From NCBI RefSeq assembly GCF_033153115.1, contig NW_026889772.1, positions 1,116,001 to 1,180,000 of the forward strand: DNA of 64,000 nucleotides, in the 5' to 3' direction. Below the pieces are notes generated by a model. That model saw only the letters and a program-made list of their open reading frames with translations, had not been told where the DNA came from and did not search any database. The translations under genes were made by a program, and so were the position numbers. Positions 1 through 11,136 of this stretch are shown here, piece after piece; the first letter of the stretch is position 1, and every line of letters begins with the position of its first letter. Source of the DNA: Saccostrea echinata (taxonomy: Eukaryota).

Positions 1-98
1 CAAATCTAAAAGTGGACAGATCATTTGAAATCTTATGCATTCAAATCCAAAAGTGGACAAATTATTCTTACGTATTCAAATCCAAAAGTGGATGAGGC
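1..98 (-). repeat. Degenerate tandem copies (~40 bp) of the KLHDC10 exon-6 3' end and donor region
   Basis: CAAATCYAAAAGTGGA occurs at 1, ~42 and ~77; the last copy is the exon end (STFGFEY|GTAAGA). Confidence 0.65.
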
Positions 99-3000
99 TG
101 TTCCACCACCAAACACATACAGACGATTGTCATGGCTAGCCACCTCATGTCGATACCTGAAATAAAACACAAGTAGGTCCCCTTTAAACTTCCTTAAAAA
201 TTCATTTATCACTTATTTAAAACAATTTCATGGTCTCTAATTGGCAAAATTCAGTTTTGTTTTAAATGGCAGTGAATAAGTTACCATATTCAAATTTTAC
301 CAATAATAGTGTCTGAAAGTTTTTATTTTCTGTACAGTTACCTGCTCTCTGGAACAAAGTCTGACTGGGCAGGTAACTCCTCCCAGGTCAGTGACTGAAG
401 GTCAAGTCTGTGAATGTGAAGGTCATACGTGTACCCTGACGTCCCACCACACACGTACATGTGCTTGCCGATCTTTGTCAGTGTCTGTTGATTGAATATG
501 AGAGATTTAACATTTATACTGTACATTTGCTTGCTGATCTTTGAGCATGTTGAGAGAGTCTGTTGATTGAATATGAGATATTTAACATTATACTGTACGT
601 TTATAAATGTGCGCATGTAATTTACTGTTTTCACTGTAGTACATGTATATAACACTGAAGTAAACACTGTAAGGAACTTATCTTTGAAAATGAATAAATA
701 ATGTCAGGAAAAGAGGTATAAAATCTGAGAATTCAAAACATATTTTATAAGCATCATTTATTTTTTTAAATTAATCTGATTGAGTAGTCAGGCATTCCTT
801 GTTGATTTTCTATTTGCCAACATGACATTACACAGCATAAGAATACAAAGTGTGGGATAGGAAATTGACAAAGAAATTTATCCGGTGATGCATATCCACT
901 GTATAAAGGAGTGAAGACTATTAACCAATCTTCACCTGATATAAAATATACATGTAGATTTCTGACATCTGAGTGACACATGGACATTCTGAAGATTTTA
1001 AAGTGATAAACATTAAACTACAGTCTCCACAATATATCTAGATAATTGCCTTATATTCACATGACCATTATTTTTCTGTGTGATACTCACATGACCATTA
1101 TTTTTCTTTTTGATACTCACATGACCATATTTTCTGTGTGATACTCACATGACCATATTTTTCTGTGTGATACTCACATGACTGTATTTTTTCTGTGTGA
1201 TACTCACATGACCGTATTTTTTCTGTGTGATACTCACATGGCCATACTTTTTCTGTGTGATACTCATATGACTGTATTTTTTCTGTGCGATACTCACATA
1301 ACAAATTTTTCTGTGTGATACTCACATGACCGTATTTTTTCTGTGTGATACTCACATAACCATACTTTTTCTGTGCGATACTAACAAGACCGTATTTTTT
1401 CTGTGTGTTACTCACATGACTGTATTTTTTCTGTGTGATACTCACATGACTATTTTTTTCTGTGTGATATACTCACATGACCGTATTTTTTCTGTGGAGA
1501 TTCTCCTGCACACTTCATATGTCTCCACTTCAGTGTGTCCAGGTTACAAATGTTCAGCTGATTACTGCTGTTAGAACCAAAAGGAACCCCGGTCCCTCCA
1601 AAACACAAAAGGTTCCTCCCAGACCTCAGGACTGAAGTGAAAAAAAAACCTCATTCATCACACTGTCAGATATATTAAGTGTTTATACTTCAGATGTACA
1701 AGGAAACCTGTAAAAGAAACAGCTGTTGCCTCTGAATAACAGCGACATTTGTATAAACGATATTGAAGGACAGACCCAAAAAGAACAAGGAAATCACACG
1801 AGCTCAAAATTTCTTTTACAACAGTTTACATGTAATTGGCATGTTGATGACAATGCCTTAGGAAAAGTAAAAGAAAAACCTTCATATTTAAACATAATAC
1901 CTACCTGCATGTGATGCCAGCTCTATCGGCATGTTACCATCAGTTTCTAGTTTTGTCCATTCCCGTCTTGCAAAGTTAAACTTCCATAACTGTCGTATGA
2001 TATCAATAAAACTTAAACAACAAAGAATGCATAAACAGTGAGTATTTGGCAAAATGTGAGCTGTCTATATTTGTGATCTTGGCTTTTAGAAAATTGGGTC
2101 AATTTTCAGTGCATCTCTATTTTGCTTTGTGAATAATGTCACTGATACAATATATATTATACAAAAAATATGCAGAATTAGACGAAAGAAAATACAATTT
2201 CTTCTTCTGGATGCAACAATTTAAAAAAAATAAATTGATAAACTGATACAAATTAACTATGAAAAACAGCTGCATGATAGCTACTGTCTGAAATCCAGAT
2301 TTTTCACCCAAATTTTACCTCTTTGAACAGTGGGTAGTAGGTATCCTCTGTGTTTGGAACATTCAGGAACTTTGGGTTATAGCCTCCCAGTACATAAAGG
2401 TTACTGTCGTCTACCACGACTCGATGACCACTTCGTGGAAACAGAAAATCTGAAAATGGGTGTATAAAAAACAAATTATGATTCATACAAGTCAGAAATA
2501 AGCTTTCTGTTTAAAGAACAATATAACTGAGTAACAGGAAGGGAGAAAATATGTGACAAATCAGACCAGGATTTGAAACCCGGTCCAATAAACTCTAGAA
2601 GCTGAAATACCATATGAGCTAGACACTGGCTGACCTCGACTGTTGTACGTACAATGTGTATAGTTTCACACATTGACACATTCACAAATATAAAACTGAA
2701 ATATTAGTGCAAAAGTAAACTGGTAAACCAGCCCTTGCAGTTCATTTTGAGTTTGTGATCATGGTGATGCATGAATTCTTTTGTTCTCTTAAATAAAGTA
2801 AATACTCCGATACTTTAGGTAAGTAACACAAAATGCGGCTAACAAAGATCTTTAAACGCAATTAATTTTTTATCCTCCCCACCCCCCCCCCAACAAAACT
2901 TTCACCTATAATGTTTAAATTCATGTGTTTTGAGCAATGTCTTTTATTTTAATCAATCATGTTAAAAAGACTTAATTTATTTTTTAATATCATAAAAGAT

Positions 3001-4668
3001 ATTATAAAAGATATTATGATTTGTGAAAAAACCGTTATACTAAAAACAAAATAAAAAAGGATACACAGTGTTTATATATGTGTAGTTGGTATCCTGGAGG
3101 TTATACATGCATCAAATAAGTCAATGAATTACCTCTCTTTTTAAAAGGGTTTCCCCATTCACTGAAAATAATAATGAATCGAGAAAGTACAGAACGCCAG
3201 TGATTGATGCAAGAATCACTTAAATCAGAACCACAAACTGTTCTAGACATTGAGACCTAGGACAAAATGACCCAAGACAAAGTACTTGCCCAGCTCCAAT
3301 ACTGACTGGCCCTAAGCCATATATTTTATTCTTATTTTAGAAGATTATTCATATCAGCAAAATTCAAAACACATGTATTTTCATTTTTTTTTTTACCACA
3401 CAGAGACAGATATTGATATGAACAAATTTATTCACATAGATTGTGCCATCAAAAATCATAGATACTCCGTAAAAATGCACAACTTGCAATTAAAAATGTC
3501 AGGGTTTCTAATTTCATGTGTTTACAAAGATCTACTTTTATGTTGAACTTCCCTTTCTTCTCTTGGAACATAACATAAGTACAAGATTCTTTTCCTGGCC
3601 CTCAATGGCTTACTTTTACCCTTCCTCAGCTTAAGAAAAAAAGAAGGCATGAACCTGAAACTCATCGGACTTATATCTTGTGTAAGTGTTGATATATAAG
3701 CCATTCATTTATTTTTATTTTTAAAAACAATACATGCAATAGCCAAATAAAAATTAAAAAGTTGGCAATTGACCTCAATGATGCACATTTAAATCATCTG
3801 TAAATTATACACAGTGTAACGATGCTCTAGTCTAGGTTTTACTAGGAAGTATTTTCCTTTGTGTAATCCATACCGATCTGAATGGAGTCTAGTGTTAACC
3901 AGACAAGTATGTAAACTGTATTAGGACGGCACTCCAGGTGGCTTTCATTATCTCATGTCTCTCGTGGATAACTCAACATTCACTTCATTATTATAATAAT
4001 TTCTTGGCAATTTGAAAATACAGTAAAACACGGTTATAACAAAGTACCAGGGACGAACAGTTTTGCTTAGTTATAAGCGTAATTCATTATATCTGTTTTA
4101 AGCATGTTAAGTGTTCAATATATTTTAAAGTCAAGGGGAATGAAAATCACTTTGCTATATGCCTCAATTCATTATAAATGTGTTCGCTATAAGCATGTTT
4201 TACTTTACTTTGATCATGTTAATTGTACAAATTTTATATTATAATTACAACATCCTGTTAGTATTTTCAATACAGCTTGCCTGCATTATCAGCACCTGTT
4301 TGTAATATATACCAACATTATAAAAGTGCTCACAATACAGTGTTATCAGTCGGAAACTGTGAATAGATTGCATTCTTTTTACTTAAACTAGTTCCGTCAT
4401 GTTCGGGGAAAAGTCTGCCTAGGGCTGCTTTCTTAAACACACCTGCCGCGTCAAGTAATCCGTTACAACCGTGTACCGATTGCACAATCTGTCAGATCAG
4501 CTGTTATTCATCAAGTCGTTTCTCCTAACTGCAAGTTTGCAAAATCTCATTTTTGTTCTAATATAAAAAAGTATACATACCTAAATTGCTTCTGTCGATA
4601 TTTTCCGTAGCTTCGTCGTCTTGCTCTGGAGATCCAAATTTTTCTACGACCAGTCCCCTAACTGCCAT
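72..4668 (-). CDS. KLHDC10: Kelch domain-containing protein 10, exons 1-6 (3' part lies beyond the left window edge)
   Basis: Exons 4668-4581, 2449-2319, 1989-1905, 1631-1477, 484-342 and 156-72 all have GT-AG boundaries and consistent phases. They translate to MAVRGLVVEKFG...PRSGHRVVVDDSNLYVLGGYNP...YPLFKELWKFNF...MPIELASHA...FGGTGVPFG...YVCGGTSGY...RYRHEVASHDNRLYVFGGG, kelch repeats matching vertebrate KLHDC10 as I recall it. Exon 1 is the least certain. Confidence 0.92.
455..600 (-). repeat. Duplicated acceptor plus exon start of KLHDC10 exon 5 (2 copies)
   Basis: GTCTGTTGATTGAATATGAGA.ATTTAACATT at 483 and 558; the upstream copy encodes a decayed KISKQMY versus the real KIGKHMY. Confidence 0.8.
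1053..1498 (-). repeat. ~30-bp minisatellite made of the KLHDC10 exon-4 end plus 5' splice site (~15 copies)
   Basis: Minus-strand unit CACAGAAAAAATACGGTCAT|GTGAGTAT(CA); the first copy is the true exon end QKKYGH|GTGAGT. Confidence 0.95.
2529..2632 (-). mobile_element. Decayed tRNA-derived SINE-like element
   Basis: Minus strand has A-box-like TAGCTCATATGG and B-box-like GGTTTCAAATCC followed by a short body. Confidence 0.5.
4021..4206. mobile_element. Tc1/mariner (pogo-like) MITE
   Basis: TA|CAGTAAAACACGGTTATA ... TATAAGCATGTTTTACT(T)|TA: imperfect TIRs with TA flanks. Confidence 0.6.
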
Positions 4669-4884
4669 TTTCTAAGGGCGAATTTGTTTCTCAAAAACTG
4701 GTTTTAGTTTCGAACCAGTTTGGTTAACCGTTCATTTGTTCCTCAAACTGGTTTTAAACTAGTTTCAACCCAGAACCGGTTTTCCATTTGTTTTTGCTGT
4801 AACCGAAACCAGTTCCTTGAACCAACCAAACCACCTCCGATGGTGGTTTATTCGGTTTACGAAATAGCGGGAAGCTTTTCCAGC

Positions 4885-6585
4885 ATGGCGACAGCGTCTG
4901 CAATATTGCTGAAATGTGCTGTCTGCTCTTTTGAAACGGAAGTAATTCCGGAGTTTGAAAAACATTTTTGTAAGATAATTGATTCTGCATTTATTTGATT
5001 TGAATGTAACAAAAGGATTTTCTTGTTAATAAAACATCTTTCAGTTATAAAATCCAAAAAAACCAGCATTTGTATGGGATAGAGGAAATTCTAGTTACAG
5101 TATAACTGATGAACAGTAATATATACTTATAGTGATATGGTCTGTCAACAAATATATCTTTACGTTGACAATTTTCATTTACTGACAGAGAATTTTAGTT
5201 TTTAATGTTAAATTTCTGAACATTTCTCACAAAGATTCATTGATTTGAGCAGTATCATTTATATTTGCTTTACTATTATTATATACCTTTTTCATAGGCT
5301 CTACCAACAACAATGTAGTTCAAGTGAAAGAGTTGGTGTCAAAAAAATATCATACGTTAATTTCAGAAGAATTTCTTAACACATATGTGTTTGAAAATGA
5401 AACTGAAGCCAATAACTTTAGAGAGAAAGACCAAGGGAATGATGATAAGGCAGTTATGGTTTTCAACAAAACCAAACCAATTTACCCAAAAGTTAACGAA
5501 AATTTGTCTGTTTTTGGAAAAGAATTTGTACGAAATACAAAACCATGGGTGGTCAATCTCCTTACTGATTGGTGTAGATTCGACGAAGTTATATGCTGCA
5601 AATCTTCAAGATACTCTGAGGCCAATGAAAGCACTGAAACAACTGGTAAAAAATTTATGTCTCTAATTATATAATATATCTATATTTTTAATTCAAAGTG
5701 AAACATCATAAAATGCTGAGTTTGTACATTGTATATTTACCCATTTATGTCAAGCCCCTGATAATATTTGCTATCCCCATGCTTGAATACTACTTAATAT
5801 GCTTTGAACAGAATATGTACATAATATACCAGTCATGATTTTTTTCCAAATTATTTGCAGATGAAAGTAAAACAGATGTACCAAGTACCAGCAATAATTC
5901 ATTATGGTCTGATATACCAAGTACCAGCAATAATTCATCAAGTACCAGCAATAATTCATCAAGTACCAGCAATAGTACCAGCAATAATTCATCAAGAACC
6001 AGCAATAATTCATCAAGTACCAGCAATATTTCATCATGGTCTAAAGTTGCAACCAGTCATCTAATAGAATTACACACCATGCATTCTGCCAAATTCACAA
6101 AACCCTCTATGAAAAAGAAGGAAGTTTGGAAGATAATTTGTTCTGAAATGCACAACAGGGGTTTCTCTTTCACAGTGAATCAATGTGAACAGAAATGGAA
6201 AAATCTTACAAAAGCATATAGAGATTGCGTTGATCACAACTCAAAATCAGGCAATGAACGGAAAGAATGTCCATTTTATAAAGAACTAGAAGACTGTTAT
6301 GGGTATAAACCGAATGTTAAACCCGTATTCACTCTAGGAACACGCAAGGAGGATGAAACCGATAACGAAGAATCAAAGGCAGAGTCAACTTCAAGTGACT
6401 GTGATGTGACCCCCAAAAGAAAGAAGAGTAAGCAGGCAAGTGAAATAGTAGAAATCTTGGATGACATGAGAAAAGAACACAAGGAGATGATGAAGACACT
6501 GAAGGAACAACATCAGAAGAAAATGGAAAATGAAGAAAAAAAACTTGAAATAATGGCTCAGTTGGTTGAAGCCATGAAAAAATAG
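4885..6585 (+). CDS. Harbinger Myb/SANT-like (trihelix) DNA-binding protein, 3 exons, ~385 aa
   Basis: Exons 4885-4969, 5298-5645 and 5861-6585, two phase-1 GT-AG introns, open throughout. N-terminal CxxC-x12-HxC, then a Ser/Thr/Asn repeat linker, a W..W..QCEQKWKNL..Y..CPFYKEL Myb_DNA-bind_4-type domain and a C-terminal coiled coil. Confidence 0.88.
5878..6040 (+). repeat. 21-bp coding repeat (STSNNSS) in the Myb-like protein linker
   Basis: CAAGTACCAGCAATAATTCAT repeated ~7 times, in frame. Confidence 0.9.
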
Positions 6586-7715
6586 TAACAGTAGTAACTA
6601 TTATGTTATCTTTTAGTGTAAGAAAGATTACTTAATGGTAATTTCTGGCAAGTTAGCGGACTGGTTTGTAGTTGACAGGAGAATCTGATACGACCATTAG
6701 TCAATTTTTCATGCCTTGTTATTATCAGATAAGATTATTTCATTGTTGATGAAAGTTCCTATTGTGGTATATTAAGTAAAGACTTAAGTAAGTTTTTAGT
6801 ATCAAGTTTGTCTGGTCTTGGCTGTTGTCACTGTTGACTTTCTTTTGATTTAAATATTTATTATCTTCTGTAGAACCCAGATGATTATCATAAATAAAGC
6901 TTTTTTCTTAAATTTGAAAATGAAAAGTATGGAGACTATTTTTAAAAAGTTTTAAATATTTGAAAATTGTTTTGTTCTTCAAGGAGAAATAATTCTTTGG
7001 CCTTTAATTCCACTGTTTGATGCATGTATTTTATAAGGCTTTAGAGAATAGATAAATAATTTGAATTTGTTCATAATAGTGGTCAGAAATCAAAATATTA
7101 AAAGTTTTCTCTTCAAAAATGAGTTTTGGTTAATTTGGTTATTAGTTTTAGAATCATTAGAAAAATAGTTAACATGTATTGTAAGGTAAATTATTAAACA
7201 TACTGTAAAGTTGGTTTGAATAATGGAAATCTAAAGTACATTTACCTGTGTGGACCTATGATAATCCAATTGTTTTAAATTATTACAATGTGATTACTAG
7301 TAGTCATCCATTCATAAATCATGATGTATACAGTATACATGTATCAGAATGTTTTGTAAAATTATTTATATAAGCCCTTGAGTATAATAGAAGGGGAGCA
7401 CTAGCTTCAAGACCGCATTATTTTGAGGAAGGTATCCTCTGTCTTTGATTTATTTTTGTGTTACAATAAAATTTAATATACCTGAGTTTTTATCTTTCCA
7501 CTGTGTTGAAAAAAAAAAATTCAGAATTTGATCATTGATGAATATTTGATGCATTAATATAAATACTTCATTTTAAGTAAGATTAACAATGAACAAATAA
7601 ACTTTTTTTGGATTCTTTATTAAGAAAGGAGTTTCAGTTTCTCATGCATGTGTAATTTAGATATGTTTTTCTGTTCATAACAAGGTGCCTACGTTGTATA
7701 TGAACAGGAAAAATA

Positions 7716-8860
7716 TTATAACATTCTTGCAATACTATCCCTCTTTTCTCCTGCAGCATTATTTACACATAAAATTTGCACAAAGTTGTTGACTTCATCC
7801 TCTCCTCCCTCCTCTATATACTCTACACAATCATCGTCATGCTGTAGACAAAATTCGTGCAATACACAGCAACTGATCACTACTTTTACAATTTTTTCAA
7901 TGTCCTGAATGTCTACAAATTTTAAGCGGCGAAATCTTCCTTTTATGGCCCCAAAAGTGCGTTCAATTACCATCCTAGTACTGCTGTGAATATAGTTGTA
8001 CTGATACTGACTTTGTGTTAGGTTTCCACGGTCCCTGTAGGGAGTCATCATCCACATTTCAAGACCATAAGCAGAGTCCCCCAAAAGGTGTGTATTGTTG
8101 GGAAACATCCCCTCTGGGTCTTTCTGAATCCTTTGGTACAATTCTGAATTTTTAAAAACTCGGGAGTCATGCACAGATCCCGGCCAACCACAGTTAACAT
8201 CTAATAAATGCATTTTTGAATCACACACGGCCTGAAGAATGACAGACGGAAATGACTTTCGATTAATGTAGTTTTCTGGACAATGATTTGGAGTTTTTAT
8301 AGGTATGTGACTACCGTCAATGGCACCAATTACAGCAGGGAAATTTTTTAAATCTTTAAACCCTTTAACAATGTTGGAAACTTTTTCACCATCTGGCCAT
8401 TTTATGCATTGCTGCAGAAGTTCACGGCAAACAATGTTTGCGAGGCGCTTTACAATATCAAAGACTGTATATTCACATACTCCGAATTGGTCAGCAATAG
8501 CTTGGATTGTCATTTGTGTTGTCAAATAGCGTATGAAAATTAATAACTGTTTTTCCATTGGTATAATTGTTTTCTCTTTAAATTCTAAGAAAATTGTTAA
8601 AAGAGATGAAAATGTTCCTGGGCTCATTCGAAACCTTCGTCTAAAAACTTTGGAATGATCTCCTCAACATAGTTAAGCGCTCGAGGAATTCTGATCCGAC
8701 GCTGAGGAATCAGGGTCATAAGAGCAGAACACATTGAAGTATGCATTTGGAGTTGAGACAATAGACCAACTTCATGATCTTCTAAGTTGCTATCATTTTC
8801 TAAAAATGCAGAATTAATAATCATGCAAACACAGGCATGTTTGTGCCTTTTAGACGCCAT
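7716..8860 (-). CDS. Harbinger (HARBI1-like, DDE_Tnp_4) transposase, frameshifted near 8625
   Basis: Catalytic motifs IGAIDGSHIPI, GSVHDSRVF, LLGDSAY and RMVIERTFG are intact in ORF 8627-7716. The N-terminal part (MASKRHK...YVEEIIPKFLDEGF) is in another frame and joins at the conserved FRMS motif. Confidence 0.93.
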
Positions 8861-8988
8861 CTTTATGTCTAAACTGTTCATTTGTTTTACCGAGGCAAAC
8901 CGGATTGAAACTAGAAACCAGTTTGAAAACTAGTTTCAAACTATAAACCAAAACCTGAACCAGTTTAAGCGCAACAAATTCGCCCTAA

Positions 8989-9400
8989 GTTTTTTTCTGT
9001 CATTGAAAACGTTCATCTGACCGTGATTCAATAACTGTTAAGATTTTATATTATCACTTTGCTGATTGGTTCATCTTTCCAAGTATGTCCAATCAAAAAG
9101 ATCGTATCTAATTGGACTCGGTATAAAGTACAAAATGGAGAATTTTGTAAACAATAAACGAATTTCAAGTTGCAGTGTAATGTATTGTAATTTACTCCTG
9201 AATTTTCCAATATTGATTTTTTTTGTCATCTTTCTCGAGAGATGACACATTAAGTTTGTAACCCCGGATATGAAGCCCCAGTGTAAGCTGCCATTGATAA
9301 GCTGGTGGTCTGGCAAATGACACGATTTCTAAATATAGATATGTAAACAAAACTGCTCAAAGACGAGGAATGGGCGATCTGTCAAACAGGCCATCTTAAA
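8989..9400 (-). promoter_or_regulatory. Probable native KLHDC10 5' UTR/promoter, displaced by the Harbinger insertion
   Basis: Directly continues the empty-site sequence; three CCAAT/ATTGG boxes at ~9064-9115 and a YY1-like GCCATCTT near 9391. Positional inference only. Confidence 0.4.
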
Positions 9401-9460
9401 AAAGAAAAACTACACATAAATCATAGAGAGTCAAAGAGACAATATCGCTTGGGTAGTGGT

Positions 9461-9705
9461 GGGTCTTCAAAATACATGCAGTTATCTAATCATGGTCAGC
9501 GCGTTGTGTATAAGAATGCACTAAACATGGCATCGATTAGAACGGCCAAGGCGTGGATCAAAGTATTTACAGAAAAACAAAGCGGGGGGTCTTCAAATAA
9601 CTTGCAGTTATCTAGGCTGTTACGTAAATGATGGCCAGTGCGTGTGTTACATGGCATCGATTAGATCAGCCAAGGCGTGGATCTAAGAATTTACAGAAAA
9701 ACAAA
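9461..9705. repeat. Imperfect ~124-bp tandem duplication
   Basis: GGGTCTTCAAA..TGCAGTTATCTA and ACATGGCATCGATTAG..GCCAAGGCGTGGATC each occur twice, ~124 bp apart. Confidence 0.8.
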
Positions 9706-10318
9706 ATCAAAGTAAATACTCGCATTAAAAGTTTAAATACGACTGATGTGAATTGATGTCGAAAATTTCACCTTTATGTGTATCTTAGTCATTCAATAAC
9801 CTGATGCCATTTTTAATTTTTTTTTTAAACAAATAGTTAATGTTAAAACTACAGGCATTGGAAGAAAGATTATATAATCATTGTGAATTTTTACGCATGT
9901 CTGCACTATTCTTTGTTTTTTGTTCTGTAAAAAGTAAATGTCAGAAATACAATATTGTTACCTTTGTATAAAAGACGGAATTTCTTTACCCGACTCGTAT
10001 TTTGAGAATTTATAATTATAGCATCTGCAATCATTTTCTTTGTGTAATTTTAAATTGCATTATTGGTTAGTGTCAAAAAAGCTATCAAATCACTTCTGTT
10101 ATACTTGAAATATTATTTAAATTGATTGTTTCCTTGAACAGCCTAAATATCAGGGTTGGTAAATTGGTACTCTTTCAGATAATTTGTAAATGCCTAATTT
10201 TAGCTTATACCGTGTTAATTTTATTACTGACCTATATTTAAATGCATGTGAGGGTTATTTCTTTGGATAAACCATATATTTAAAAGTGGAAAATCTTTCG
10301 AAATCAATTGAGGGTCAT

Positions 10319-11136
10319 TGTCGTATAGTGAGACTTCCCCATAGTGAGATTTCCCCGGAAGACTGGCTATGTAGTGAGATATACCCCGGGAAGACTGGCT
10401 ATATAGTGAGACTTCCCCCCGGAAGATCGACTGGCAATAGAGTGAGACTTCTCCCGGGGAAGTCTCACTATATAGCCAGTCTCTCCCCCTTTCATAGTGA
10501 GACTTCCCCTCAAATGTAGTTTCCGGAATATTTATTTCATTGTAAAACAATATTTTTCAGTATATGAATAAAAGTTCTCCGTTAATTAATAATTAAAACA
10601 TCTTAATAACCTTTTAACAGTTTGTTAGCCAAAAATAATTATGGGATGACATGTACATGTATATTGATGTGAGATAACTGAATGAAAAATGTACGTTATT
10701 GTTACAAGTATACATCTTTCTTTACTATATTGTATTTATTGCATTCCCCATGAAGGTTAACATAAGCAAATTCCAAGAGTCCTCGAGTAATGATCTCTTA
10801 AATGTTAAATGTATTTCTTTTGATAAGAATCATTTTGGAACAATGCAATTATTTACTGTGCACGATAAATTTTTAATGCGCACTTCTATATTTATTCATA
10901 CATGTATCTACTTTATAAGATCATTATCAAAATGCAAGTATATATACATCGTCGATGTAAATAAAATACAACTGAACATGGAAGTGGGAAGCCTCACTAT
11001 GGTCGTTTAGGGGGGAAGACTCACTATATAGTAATTCTCCCCCCCCCCCCCACCGGGGAGTCTTACCGCTATATATAGCCGCATTTCCGGGGGGAAGTCT
11101 CACTATGGGGGTGGGAGTCTCACTATATGACACCGG
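10319..11136. mobile_element. Non-autonomous DNA transposon with reiterated subterminal TATAGTGAGACTTCCCC motifs
   Basis: Left TGTCGTATAGTGAGACT versus right AGTCTCACTATATGACA; multiple motif copies in opposite orientation at each end, AT-rich core. Confidence 0.7.

What the first reader, a model, noticed from the sequence alone, without database searches (positions are those of the whole stretch)
4581..9000. Young 4.3-kb Harbinger inserted 7 bp upstream of the KLHDC10 start codon
The TAA TSD (4673-4675) nearly abuts the AAAATGG start context (ATG at 4668). The insertion separates the CDS from its presumed promoter, puts the transposase in sense orientation just downstream of that promoter, and leaves the Myb gene head-to-head with KLHDC10, with only ~215 bp between the two ATGs. 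Inference: either a loss-of-function allele of a conserved gene, or promoter swapping in which the host promoter drives the transposase and the TE end drives the host gene. Perfect TIRs and TSD imply a recent and probably polymorphic insertion.
Basis: partly seen in the sequence, partly recalled or inferred. Interest (0 to 1): 0.7.

Follow-up and report, generated by a model that had tools for sequence, protein, structure and literature searches.

The report
Broken Harbinger transposon before oyster KLHDC10
A 4.3-kb Harbinger DNA transposon sits 7 bases before the start codon of an oyster's KLHDC10 gene; its own transposase gene is frameshifted, so it is likely an ordinary, still-segregating insertion that would cut the gene off from its promoter rather than a promoter swap.

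Summary
The structure is real. A PIF/Harbinger element (4676-8985, 4310 bp, 13-bp perfect TIRs, TAA duplication) lies 7 bp before the conserved KLHDC10 ATG (4668). Exon 1 is spliced to exon 2 in contigs of three studies, and 14 of 15 listed oyster relatives start at this Met. The gene has one copy in the assembly.

Its transposase stops at 78 aa instead of 385, before the DDE residues, so "host promoter drives the transposase" yields no full-length enzyme. Two siblings (3 and 5 substitutions away) keep both genes intact, and a ~1.1-kb MITE family shares the ends, so the family was recently active.

Polymorphism is likely but indirect. One KLHDC10 contig stops matching exactly where an empty allele would diverge, and the listed element contigs carry sibling letters, not this copy's private ones.

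Most likely the element acts as a gene trap, making a reduced-function allele that intact copies could excise in trans. The effect on expression is untested. This is an ordinary kind of event in oysters.

The parts
4673..4675 (.). Left target-site duplication (TAA)
4676..8985 (.). PIF/Harbinger element, 4310 bp; this copy is transposase-defective
4676..4688 (+). Left TIR, 13 bp perfect
4689..4884 (.). Left subterminal region with repeated AAC(C/T)(A/G)GTT-like motifs (9 overlapping pattern hits in 210 bp against 4 in 3801 bp of the interior). Likely Myb-protein sites and Myb promoter (inferred). Two short closed uORFs on the minus strand (ATG 4787, 4735).
4885..6585 (+). Myb/SANT-like gene, exons 4885-4969, 5298-5645 and 5861-6585, 385 aa with no internal stop. 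Exon 2-3 joint seen in contigs of X1 and X2; exon 1 is predicted only.
7716..8860 (-). DDE_Tnp_4 transposase gene (start 8860 or in-frame 8881), frameshifted in this copy
8646..8647 (.). Site of a 13-bp deletion relative to all five full-length siblings; gives a stop at 8626-8624 after 78 aa
   Evidence: intact form also in an X4 contig
7616..7621 (-). AATAAA downstream of the transposase stop; likely poly(A) signal (listed transposase contigs end at 7617, 7641 and 7694)
8973..8985 (-). Right TIR, 13 bp perfect
8986..8988 (.). Right target-site duplication (TAA)
4581..4668 (-). KLHDC10 coding exon 1 (ATG at 4668, 88 nt, GT donor)
72..2449 (-). KLHDC10 exons 2-6 (2449-2319, 1989-1905, 1631-1477, 484-342, 156-72); open frame, 205 of 229 aa identical to P0001 with exon 1; the remaining exons lie left of the window
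8989..9219 (-). Single-copy upstream sequence, about 230 bp, the likely KLHDC10 promoter and leader. CCAAT/ATTGG at 9069, 9093, 9115 and 9211, TATA-like at 9050 (patterns recalled). Start site not determined.
9220..11000 (.). Unrelated high-copy interspersed repeat (at least 1.78 kb, about 95% to seven loci tested) bounding the promoter

Best explanation
A young PIF/Harbinger copy with a frameshifted transposase sits in the leader of the single KLHDC10 gene and likely acts as a gene trap: transcripts from the host promoter would run into the element and end at its poly(A) signal, making a reduced-function allele that likely still segregates with the empty allele. Shown: the structure, the frameshift, the intact Myb gene, two intact sibling copies, and the true start exon. 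Inferred: the promoter lies in 8989-9219; a transcript from there meets 93 ATGs and the AATAAA at 7621 before reaching 4668; the allele persists because it is likely recessive and sheltered in heterozygotes. Also inferred: its ends are intact, so transposase from L002 or L003 could excise it in trans, and Harbinger excision is usually precise.
For: Structure. Frameshift: 78 aa against 385 aa, and the 13 bp are present in 5 of 5 full-length siblings; the catalytic motifs lie at residues 183-308 of the intact protein. Youth: 3 and 5 substitutions to L002 and L003 over 4310 bp. Start exon: joint 2449-4581 in X1, X2 and X6; 14 of 15 listed cluster members begin MAV(R/K)G. Single copy. Empty allele, indirect: X2's KLHDC10 contig has 103 letters on the exon-1 side and is laid for exactly 96, to 4676, the last letter that filled and empty alleles share. 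Element contigs show sibling letters at 7377 (X1, X4), 7875 (X2, X4, X6) and the deletion (X4). Trap anatomy: 93 upstream ATGs, AATAAA at 7621. Background from papers (passages): heterozygous young TE insertions are common in oysters (bioRxiv 10.64898/2026.02.10.705023); KLHDC10 knockout mice are viable (PMC5025154); excision is usually precise (PMC2836001).
Against: No expression of a carrier allele was measured. The 7 unlaid letters of the X2 contig were not shown. The same arithmetic leaves 22 unexplained unlaid letters in X1, so unlaid ends also arise for other reasons. X2 bears a different organism label from X1 and X3-X6. Contigs drop rare variants, and the tables were cut (198 pieces and 121 loose ends not shown). 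Two substitutions and a deletion are private to this copy. If they arose in place, the allele has lasted a long time, which fits a mild effect as well as a sheltered null; they could also come from an unseen donor copy or be assembly errors. The start site is unknown, and a start near 9018 would put two out-of-frame ATGs in the empty leader.
Confidence: 0.62

Rival explanations
1. The element's left end, a likely divergent Myb promoter, takes over KLHDC10 transcription, so the allele is expressed under element control.
For: CpG-rich left end (o/e about 1.0 in 4750-4999). The two minus-strand uORFs in it are short and closed before 4668. X1 has contigs over the left end, but their strand and source copy are unknown.
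Against: No listed contig joins the element to exon 1 (tables cut). X2's contig leaves the element sequence at 4677.
Confidence: 0.15
2. The element is spliced out of the leader as a new intron: TIR plus TSD create a pyrimidine-richer acceptor 3 nt before the ATG.
For: 7 of 11 pyrimidines before that AG in the filled allele against 2 in the empty allele; seven real or modelled acceptors here score 5-10.
Against: 25 of 103 YAG sites on that strand score as high. The best donors before the transposase ATG match only 5 of 9 of a recalled consensus. The poly(A) signal lies inside. No such joint was listed in four runs.
Confidence: 0.07
3. The host promoter drives an active transposase.
For: Sense orientation. 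The frameshift stop overlaps an in-frame ATG (8627), so reinitiation could give a 303-aa protein that keeps the DDE domain.
Against: The main frame stops at 78 aa. A restart product lacks the first 82 aa, and reinitiation after a long ORF is inefficient in eukaryotes (recalled). This copy's private letters appear in none of the 6 listed comparisons.
Confidence: 0.03
4. The insertion or its private changes are assembly artefacts, or the insertion is fixed and neutral.
For: No read from the assembled animal was seen. Only one haplotype is held.
Against: Exact TSD, intact ends and a target site fitting the family's palindromic preference. The deletion is not in a homopolymer. The X2 contig points to an empty allele.
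Confidence: 0.13

Closest known systems
Animal Harbinger transposons, such as zebrafish Harbinger3_DR (PMC9179366, passages; PMC2836001, passages)
   Same: DDE transposase plus a Myb/SANT-like gene, TIRs, 3-bp TSD, non-autonomous derivatives.
   Different: The perfect TIR is 13 bp, against the usual 25-50 bp in the review. The TSD is looser: TTA or TAA in only 9 of 20 copies, within a palindromic A-x-A-C / G-T-x-T frame. No phylogeny was built.
Rice Ping/Pong and mPing (PMC5724284, passages; PMC2836001)
   Same: A few autonomous copies with a MITE family, and insertion near a gene's 5' end (mPing prefers sites upstream of the start site).
   Different: Animal host. Here the full-length copy, not the MITE, is at the gene. 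A preference for gene starts was not shown for this family.
Harbinger-1M_cIno in C. inopinata dpy-11 (bioRxiv 10.64898/2026.05.26.728016, passages)
   Same: An active animal PIF/Harbinger making a probable loss-of-function allele, with a TWA-type TSD.
   Different: That case is a new coding-region insertion with a phenotype. This one is a leader insertion with no phenotype known.
Heterozygous TE insertions in oyster genomes (bioRxiv 10.64898/2026.02.10.705023, passages)
   Same: Young TE insertions segregating within individuals (3-14% of the genome hemizygous).
   Different: The passages seen give genome-wide counts and do not describe this family or locus.

Membership tests
PIF/Harbinger superfamily | DDE transposase of the DDE_Tnp_4 type | tested here: met
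   PF13359 E 2e-38 for the window frame and for intact L002; D, D, E motifs located in L002
PIF/Harbinger superfamily | Second gene with a Myb/SANT-like domain | tested here: met
   PF13837 E 4e-16; 385-aa open model
PIF/Harbinger superfamily | Terminal inverted repeats | tested here: met
   13 bp perfect
PIF/Harbinger superfamily | 3-bp TSD, typically TWA | tested here: met
   TAA here; 20 of 22 copies with exact 3-bp TSD, 9 of them TTA or TAA
PIF/Harbinger superfamily | Phylogenetic placement among Harbinger, Pong and ISL2EU transposases | not tested
   No reference set fetched. The Myb gene argues against ISL2EU as described in PMC9179366.
Autonomous Harbinger copy | Both genes intact | tested here: not met
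   Transposase truncated at 78 aa in this copy; met for L002 and L003
Autonomous Harbinger copy | Demonstrated transposition | not testable with these tools
   Needs an assay or pedigree data
KLHDC10 orthologue | Kelch repeats and best match to KLHDC10 over KLHDC2/3 | tested here: met
   Kelch Pfam hits; relative P0001 hits human KLHDC10 at E 1e-107 and KLHDC2 at E 4e-23 at best; 8 of 22 cluster members carry a name, and the named rows listed read KLHDC10. No tree built.
Introner-like (TE spliced out as an intron) | Transcript with the element removed by GT-AG splicing | tested here: inconclusive
   Acceptor plausible but not distinctive, donors weak; no joint listed

The most novel reading that the evidence does not exclude
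The filled allele is tolerated because the element now supplies KLHDC10's 5' end. It would do so either through outward transcription from the Myb promoter or through an acceptor made by TIR plus TSD 3 nt before the ATG. Meanwhile intact sibling copies would excise it precisely in some cells, giving a naturally mutable, element-regulated allele of a conserved C-degron E3 receptor in a mollusc.
Probability: 0.15. Interest if true: 0.55.

Novelty: new member of a known kind. Interest (0 to 1): 0.27.

Why it matters
As an allele it is a candidate natural knock-down of KLHDC10 and one example of the transposon-borne genetic load of oysters. More useful is the family. Two copies that differ by 2 substitutions keep both genes intact, and spliced Myb and undeleted transposase contigs exist in public runs. 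It is therefore a candidate active, native DNA transposon of a bivalve that could be tested as an insertion tool. Neither point is surprising to a transposon specialist.

Tried and rejected
Second haplotype or paralogue with an empty site in G000: none found.

No RNA holder is on record in the run search; the runs are guessed RNA. I treat their GT-AG-skipping contigs as spliced transcripts. Uncovered stretches were not used as evidence. Of 9 runs listed, 4 were laid.

Depth arithmetic on X1's left-end contigs could not tell whether they cross into exon 1 (done by hand; inconclusive).

Preference of the family for gene starts: the test (CpG-rich site next to a CpG-poor domain) gave 4 of 21 against 3 of 16 and 12 of 49 in background, and did not even call the window site, so it is insensitive.

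A first CpG comparison against the window alone was replaced by 40 genome-wide stretches.

My first exon guesses were out of frame and were corrected.

Earlier findings near this place or by transposase sequence: none.

Paper searches for Harbinger in oysters or bivalves, for splice-out and for insertion preference listed nothing describing this family or allele. I saw listings only for most hits and read no supplements; TE libraries in such supplements (for example PMC10294476) may already hold the family.

Full report
OBSERVATION. The element runs from 4676 to 8985 (4310 bp) between two TAA triplets, with TIRs perfect for 13 bp. The host ATG is at 4668 on the minus strand, 7 bp from the element. 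The element carries a DDE_Tnp_4 transposase on minus (PF13359, E 2e-38) and a Myb/SANT gene on plus (PF13837, E 4e-16). The Myb model has three exons and 385 codons with no stop. Its second intron is skipped in contigs of runs X1 and X2; its first exon (ATG 4885, 217 bp from the host ATG) is my prediction.

THE HOST GENE. Exons at 4668-4581, 2449-2319, 1989-1905, 1631-1477, 484-342 and 156-72 give an open frame, 205 of 229 residues identical to P0001. The joints between them appear in contigs of X1, X2 and X6, three studies; X4 shows only the last joint. P0001's cluster has 22 members, 15 listed; the named rows are oyster KLHDC10 proteins, so the window is from an oyster. Fourteen of the 15 begin MAV(R/K)G. 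Thirteen match exon 1 at 24-27 of 29 residues, and one matches 29 of 29 and may not be independent of this genome; the fifteenth is a fragment. P0001 matches human KLHDC10 at E 1e-107 and KLHDC2 at E 4e-23 at best. The assembly holds one copy of exon 1 and no paralogue above 32% identity. So 4668 is the real start.

G000 holds five more full-length copies, one split copy and a family of roughly 1.0-1.1-kb derivatives with the same ends (counts are lower bounds). The window copy differs from L002 by 3 substitutions and from L003 by 5, and from both by a 13-bp deletion at 8646/8647. The 13 bp are present in 5 of 5 siblings. The deletion ends the transposase at 78 aa; L002 and L003 encode 385 aa, with catalytic motifs at residues 183-308. 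L004-L006 are broken elsewhere (185, 330 and 271 aa). The stop overlaps an in-frame ATG, so a 303-aa restart product is conceivable, but it would need reinitiation after a long ORF, which is inefficient (recalled). The host promoter therefore cannot make full-length transposase from this copy. The copy keeps its ends and an open Myb gene, so it could still be moved in trans (inference from PMC2836001, passages).

AGE AND ACTIVITY. L002 and L003 differ by 2 substitutions. Two substitutions (7377, 7875) and the deletion are private to the window copy among the five copies aligned in full. No mutation rate came from any call. At a recalled order of 1e-8 per site per generation, two changes in 4.3 kb would mean tens of thousands of generations, with wide error, unless they arose in a donor copy or are assembly errors. 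So the insertion is young for a transposon but not shown to be very recent. Twenty of 22 copies with both ends have an exact 3-bp TSD, 9 of them TTA or TAA, within a palindromic frame. Flanks of 26 of 27 attempted copies (L060 missed) keep more CpG than 40 fixed background stretches that I chose on large contigs: o/e at least 0.6 in 21 of 26 against 16 of 40, Fisher p 0.002. That fits a preference for, or survival in, unmethylated DNA, but several flanks are other repeats, and a test for gene starts was null and insensitive.

IS IT POLYMORPHIC? Only indirect evidence. Four of nine listed runs were laid. X2's KLHDC10 contig has 103 letters on the exon-1 side and is laid for 96, up to 4676. Filled and empty alleles share exactly one letter beyond the TSD, so 96 is what an empty allele predicts. 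The arithmetic is exact for X6 (60 of 60) but leaves 22 unexplained letters in X1, the 7 letters themselves were not shown, and X2 has a different organism label. At this copy's private sites the listed contigs carry the sibling form in 6 of 6 cases (7377 in X1 and X4; 7875 in X2, X4 and X6; the deletion in X4). This argues against "fixed and read through from the host promoter", but contigs drop rare variants. No listed contig bridges either junction; the tables were cut.

HOW IT LIKELY WORKS. About 230 bp of single-copy DNA (8989-9219) lie between the element and another high-copy repeat. They hold four CCAAT/ATTGG words and a TATA-like word (patterns recalled, start site unknown). A transcript from there would enter the element, pass 93 ATGs before the host ATG, and meet AATAAA at 7621, near where listed transposase contigs end. 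The likely result is a trapped, reduced-function allele (0.62). KLHDC10 is a CRL2 C-degron receptor (PMC10591846, search listing), and knockout mice are viable (PMC5025154, passages), so persistence of such an allele is plausible. Rescue routes remain open. Outward transcription from the CpG-rich left end is one (0.15). Splicing to an AG 3 nt before the ATG is another (0.07): the element raises its pyrimidine count from 2 to 7 of 11, though 25 of 103 YAG sites score as well and donors are weak. Precise excision in trans is a third. A working transposase from this copy gets 0.03; an artefact or a fixed neutral allele 0.13.

COMPARISON. The element meets the tested defining features of PIF/Harbinger (PMC9179366, passages) but is not an autonomous copy. 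Insertion near gene starts is known for mPing (PMC5724284, passages). A Harbinger loss-of-function allele is known in C. inopinata (bioRxiv 10.64898/2026.05.26.728016, passages). Young heterozygous TE insertions are common in oysters (bioRxiv 10.64898/2026.02.10.705023, passages). Searches listed no description of this family or allele; supplements were not read and may hold it.

VERDICT. Real, well-defined, a new member of a known kind. The promoter-swap idea fails on the transposase side and is untested on the host side. Interest 0.27; the novel case (an element-regulated, mutable allele) has probability 0.15 and interest 0.55.

Noticed in passing
L002 (G000:C47) and L003 (G000:C33): Two 4323-bp copies differing by 2 substitutions, both genes intact: candidate active autonomous Harbingers of a bivalve. 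Their TSDs are AAC and CCA, not TWA.
   Followed up: partly
L013-L030: MITE family of about 1.0-1.1 kb with the same ends, 92-93% identical at the left end; an X6 contig has this form.
   Followed up: partly
window 9220-11000 and beyond: High-copy repeat (402 first-look candidates, 92-97% in the 39 other places listed) that begins with a short hairpin and holds internal direct and inverted repeats (9455-9705, 10315-10513). It leaves only about 230 bp of single-copy promoter. Not classified.
   Followed up: partly
window 1040-1480: Minisatellite of about 30 bp in KLHDC10 intron 4 whose unit copies the exon-4 end and donor; a second short duplication repeats the exon-5 acceptor (about 484-580).
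   Followed up: no
window 4011-4204: Small high-depth repeat with inverted arms (4015-4043, 4183-4211) in intron 1, a likely MITE.
   Followed up: no
window 5875-6048: 21-bp tandem repeat coding a Ser/Asn/Thr-rich linker in the Myb protein; L005's coding model is 33 nt shorter and still open.
   Followed up: no
L065 (flank of L003): The intact copy L003 sits in or beside frames that look like a DIRS-type retroelement (recalled resemblance, not tested).
   Followed up: no
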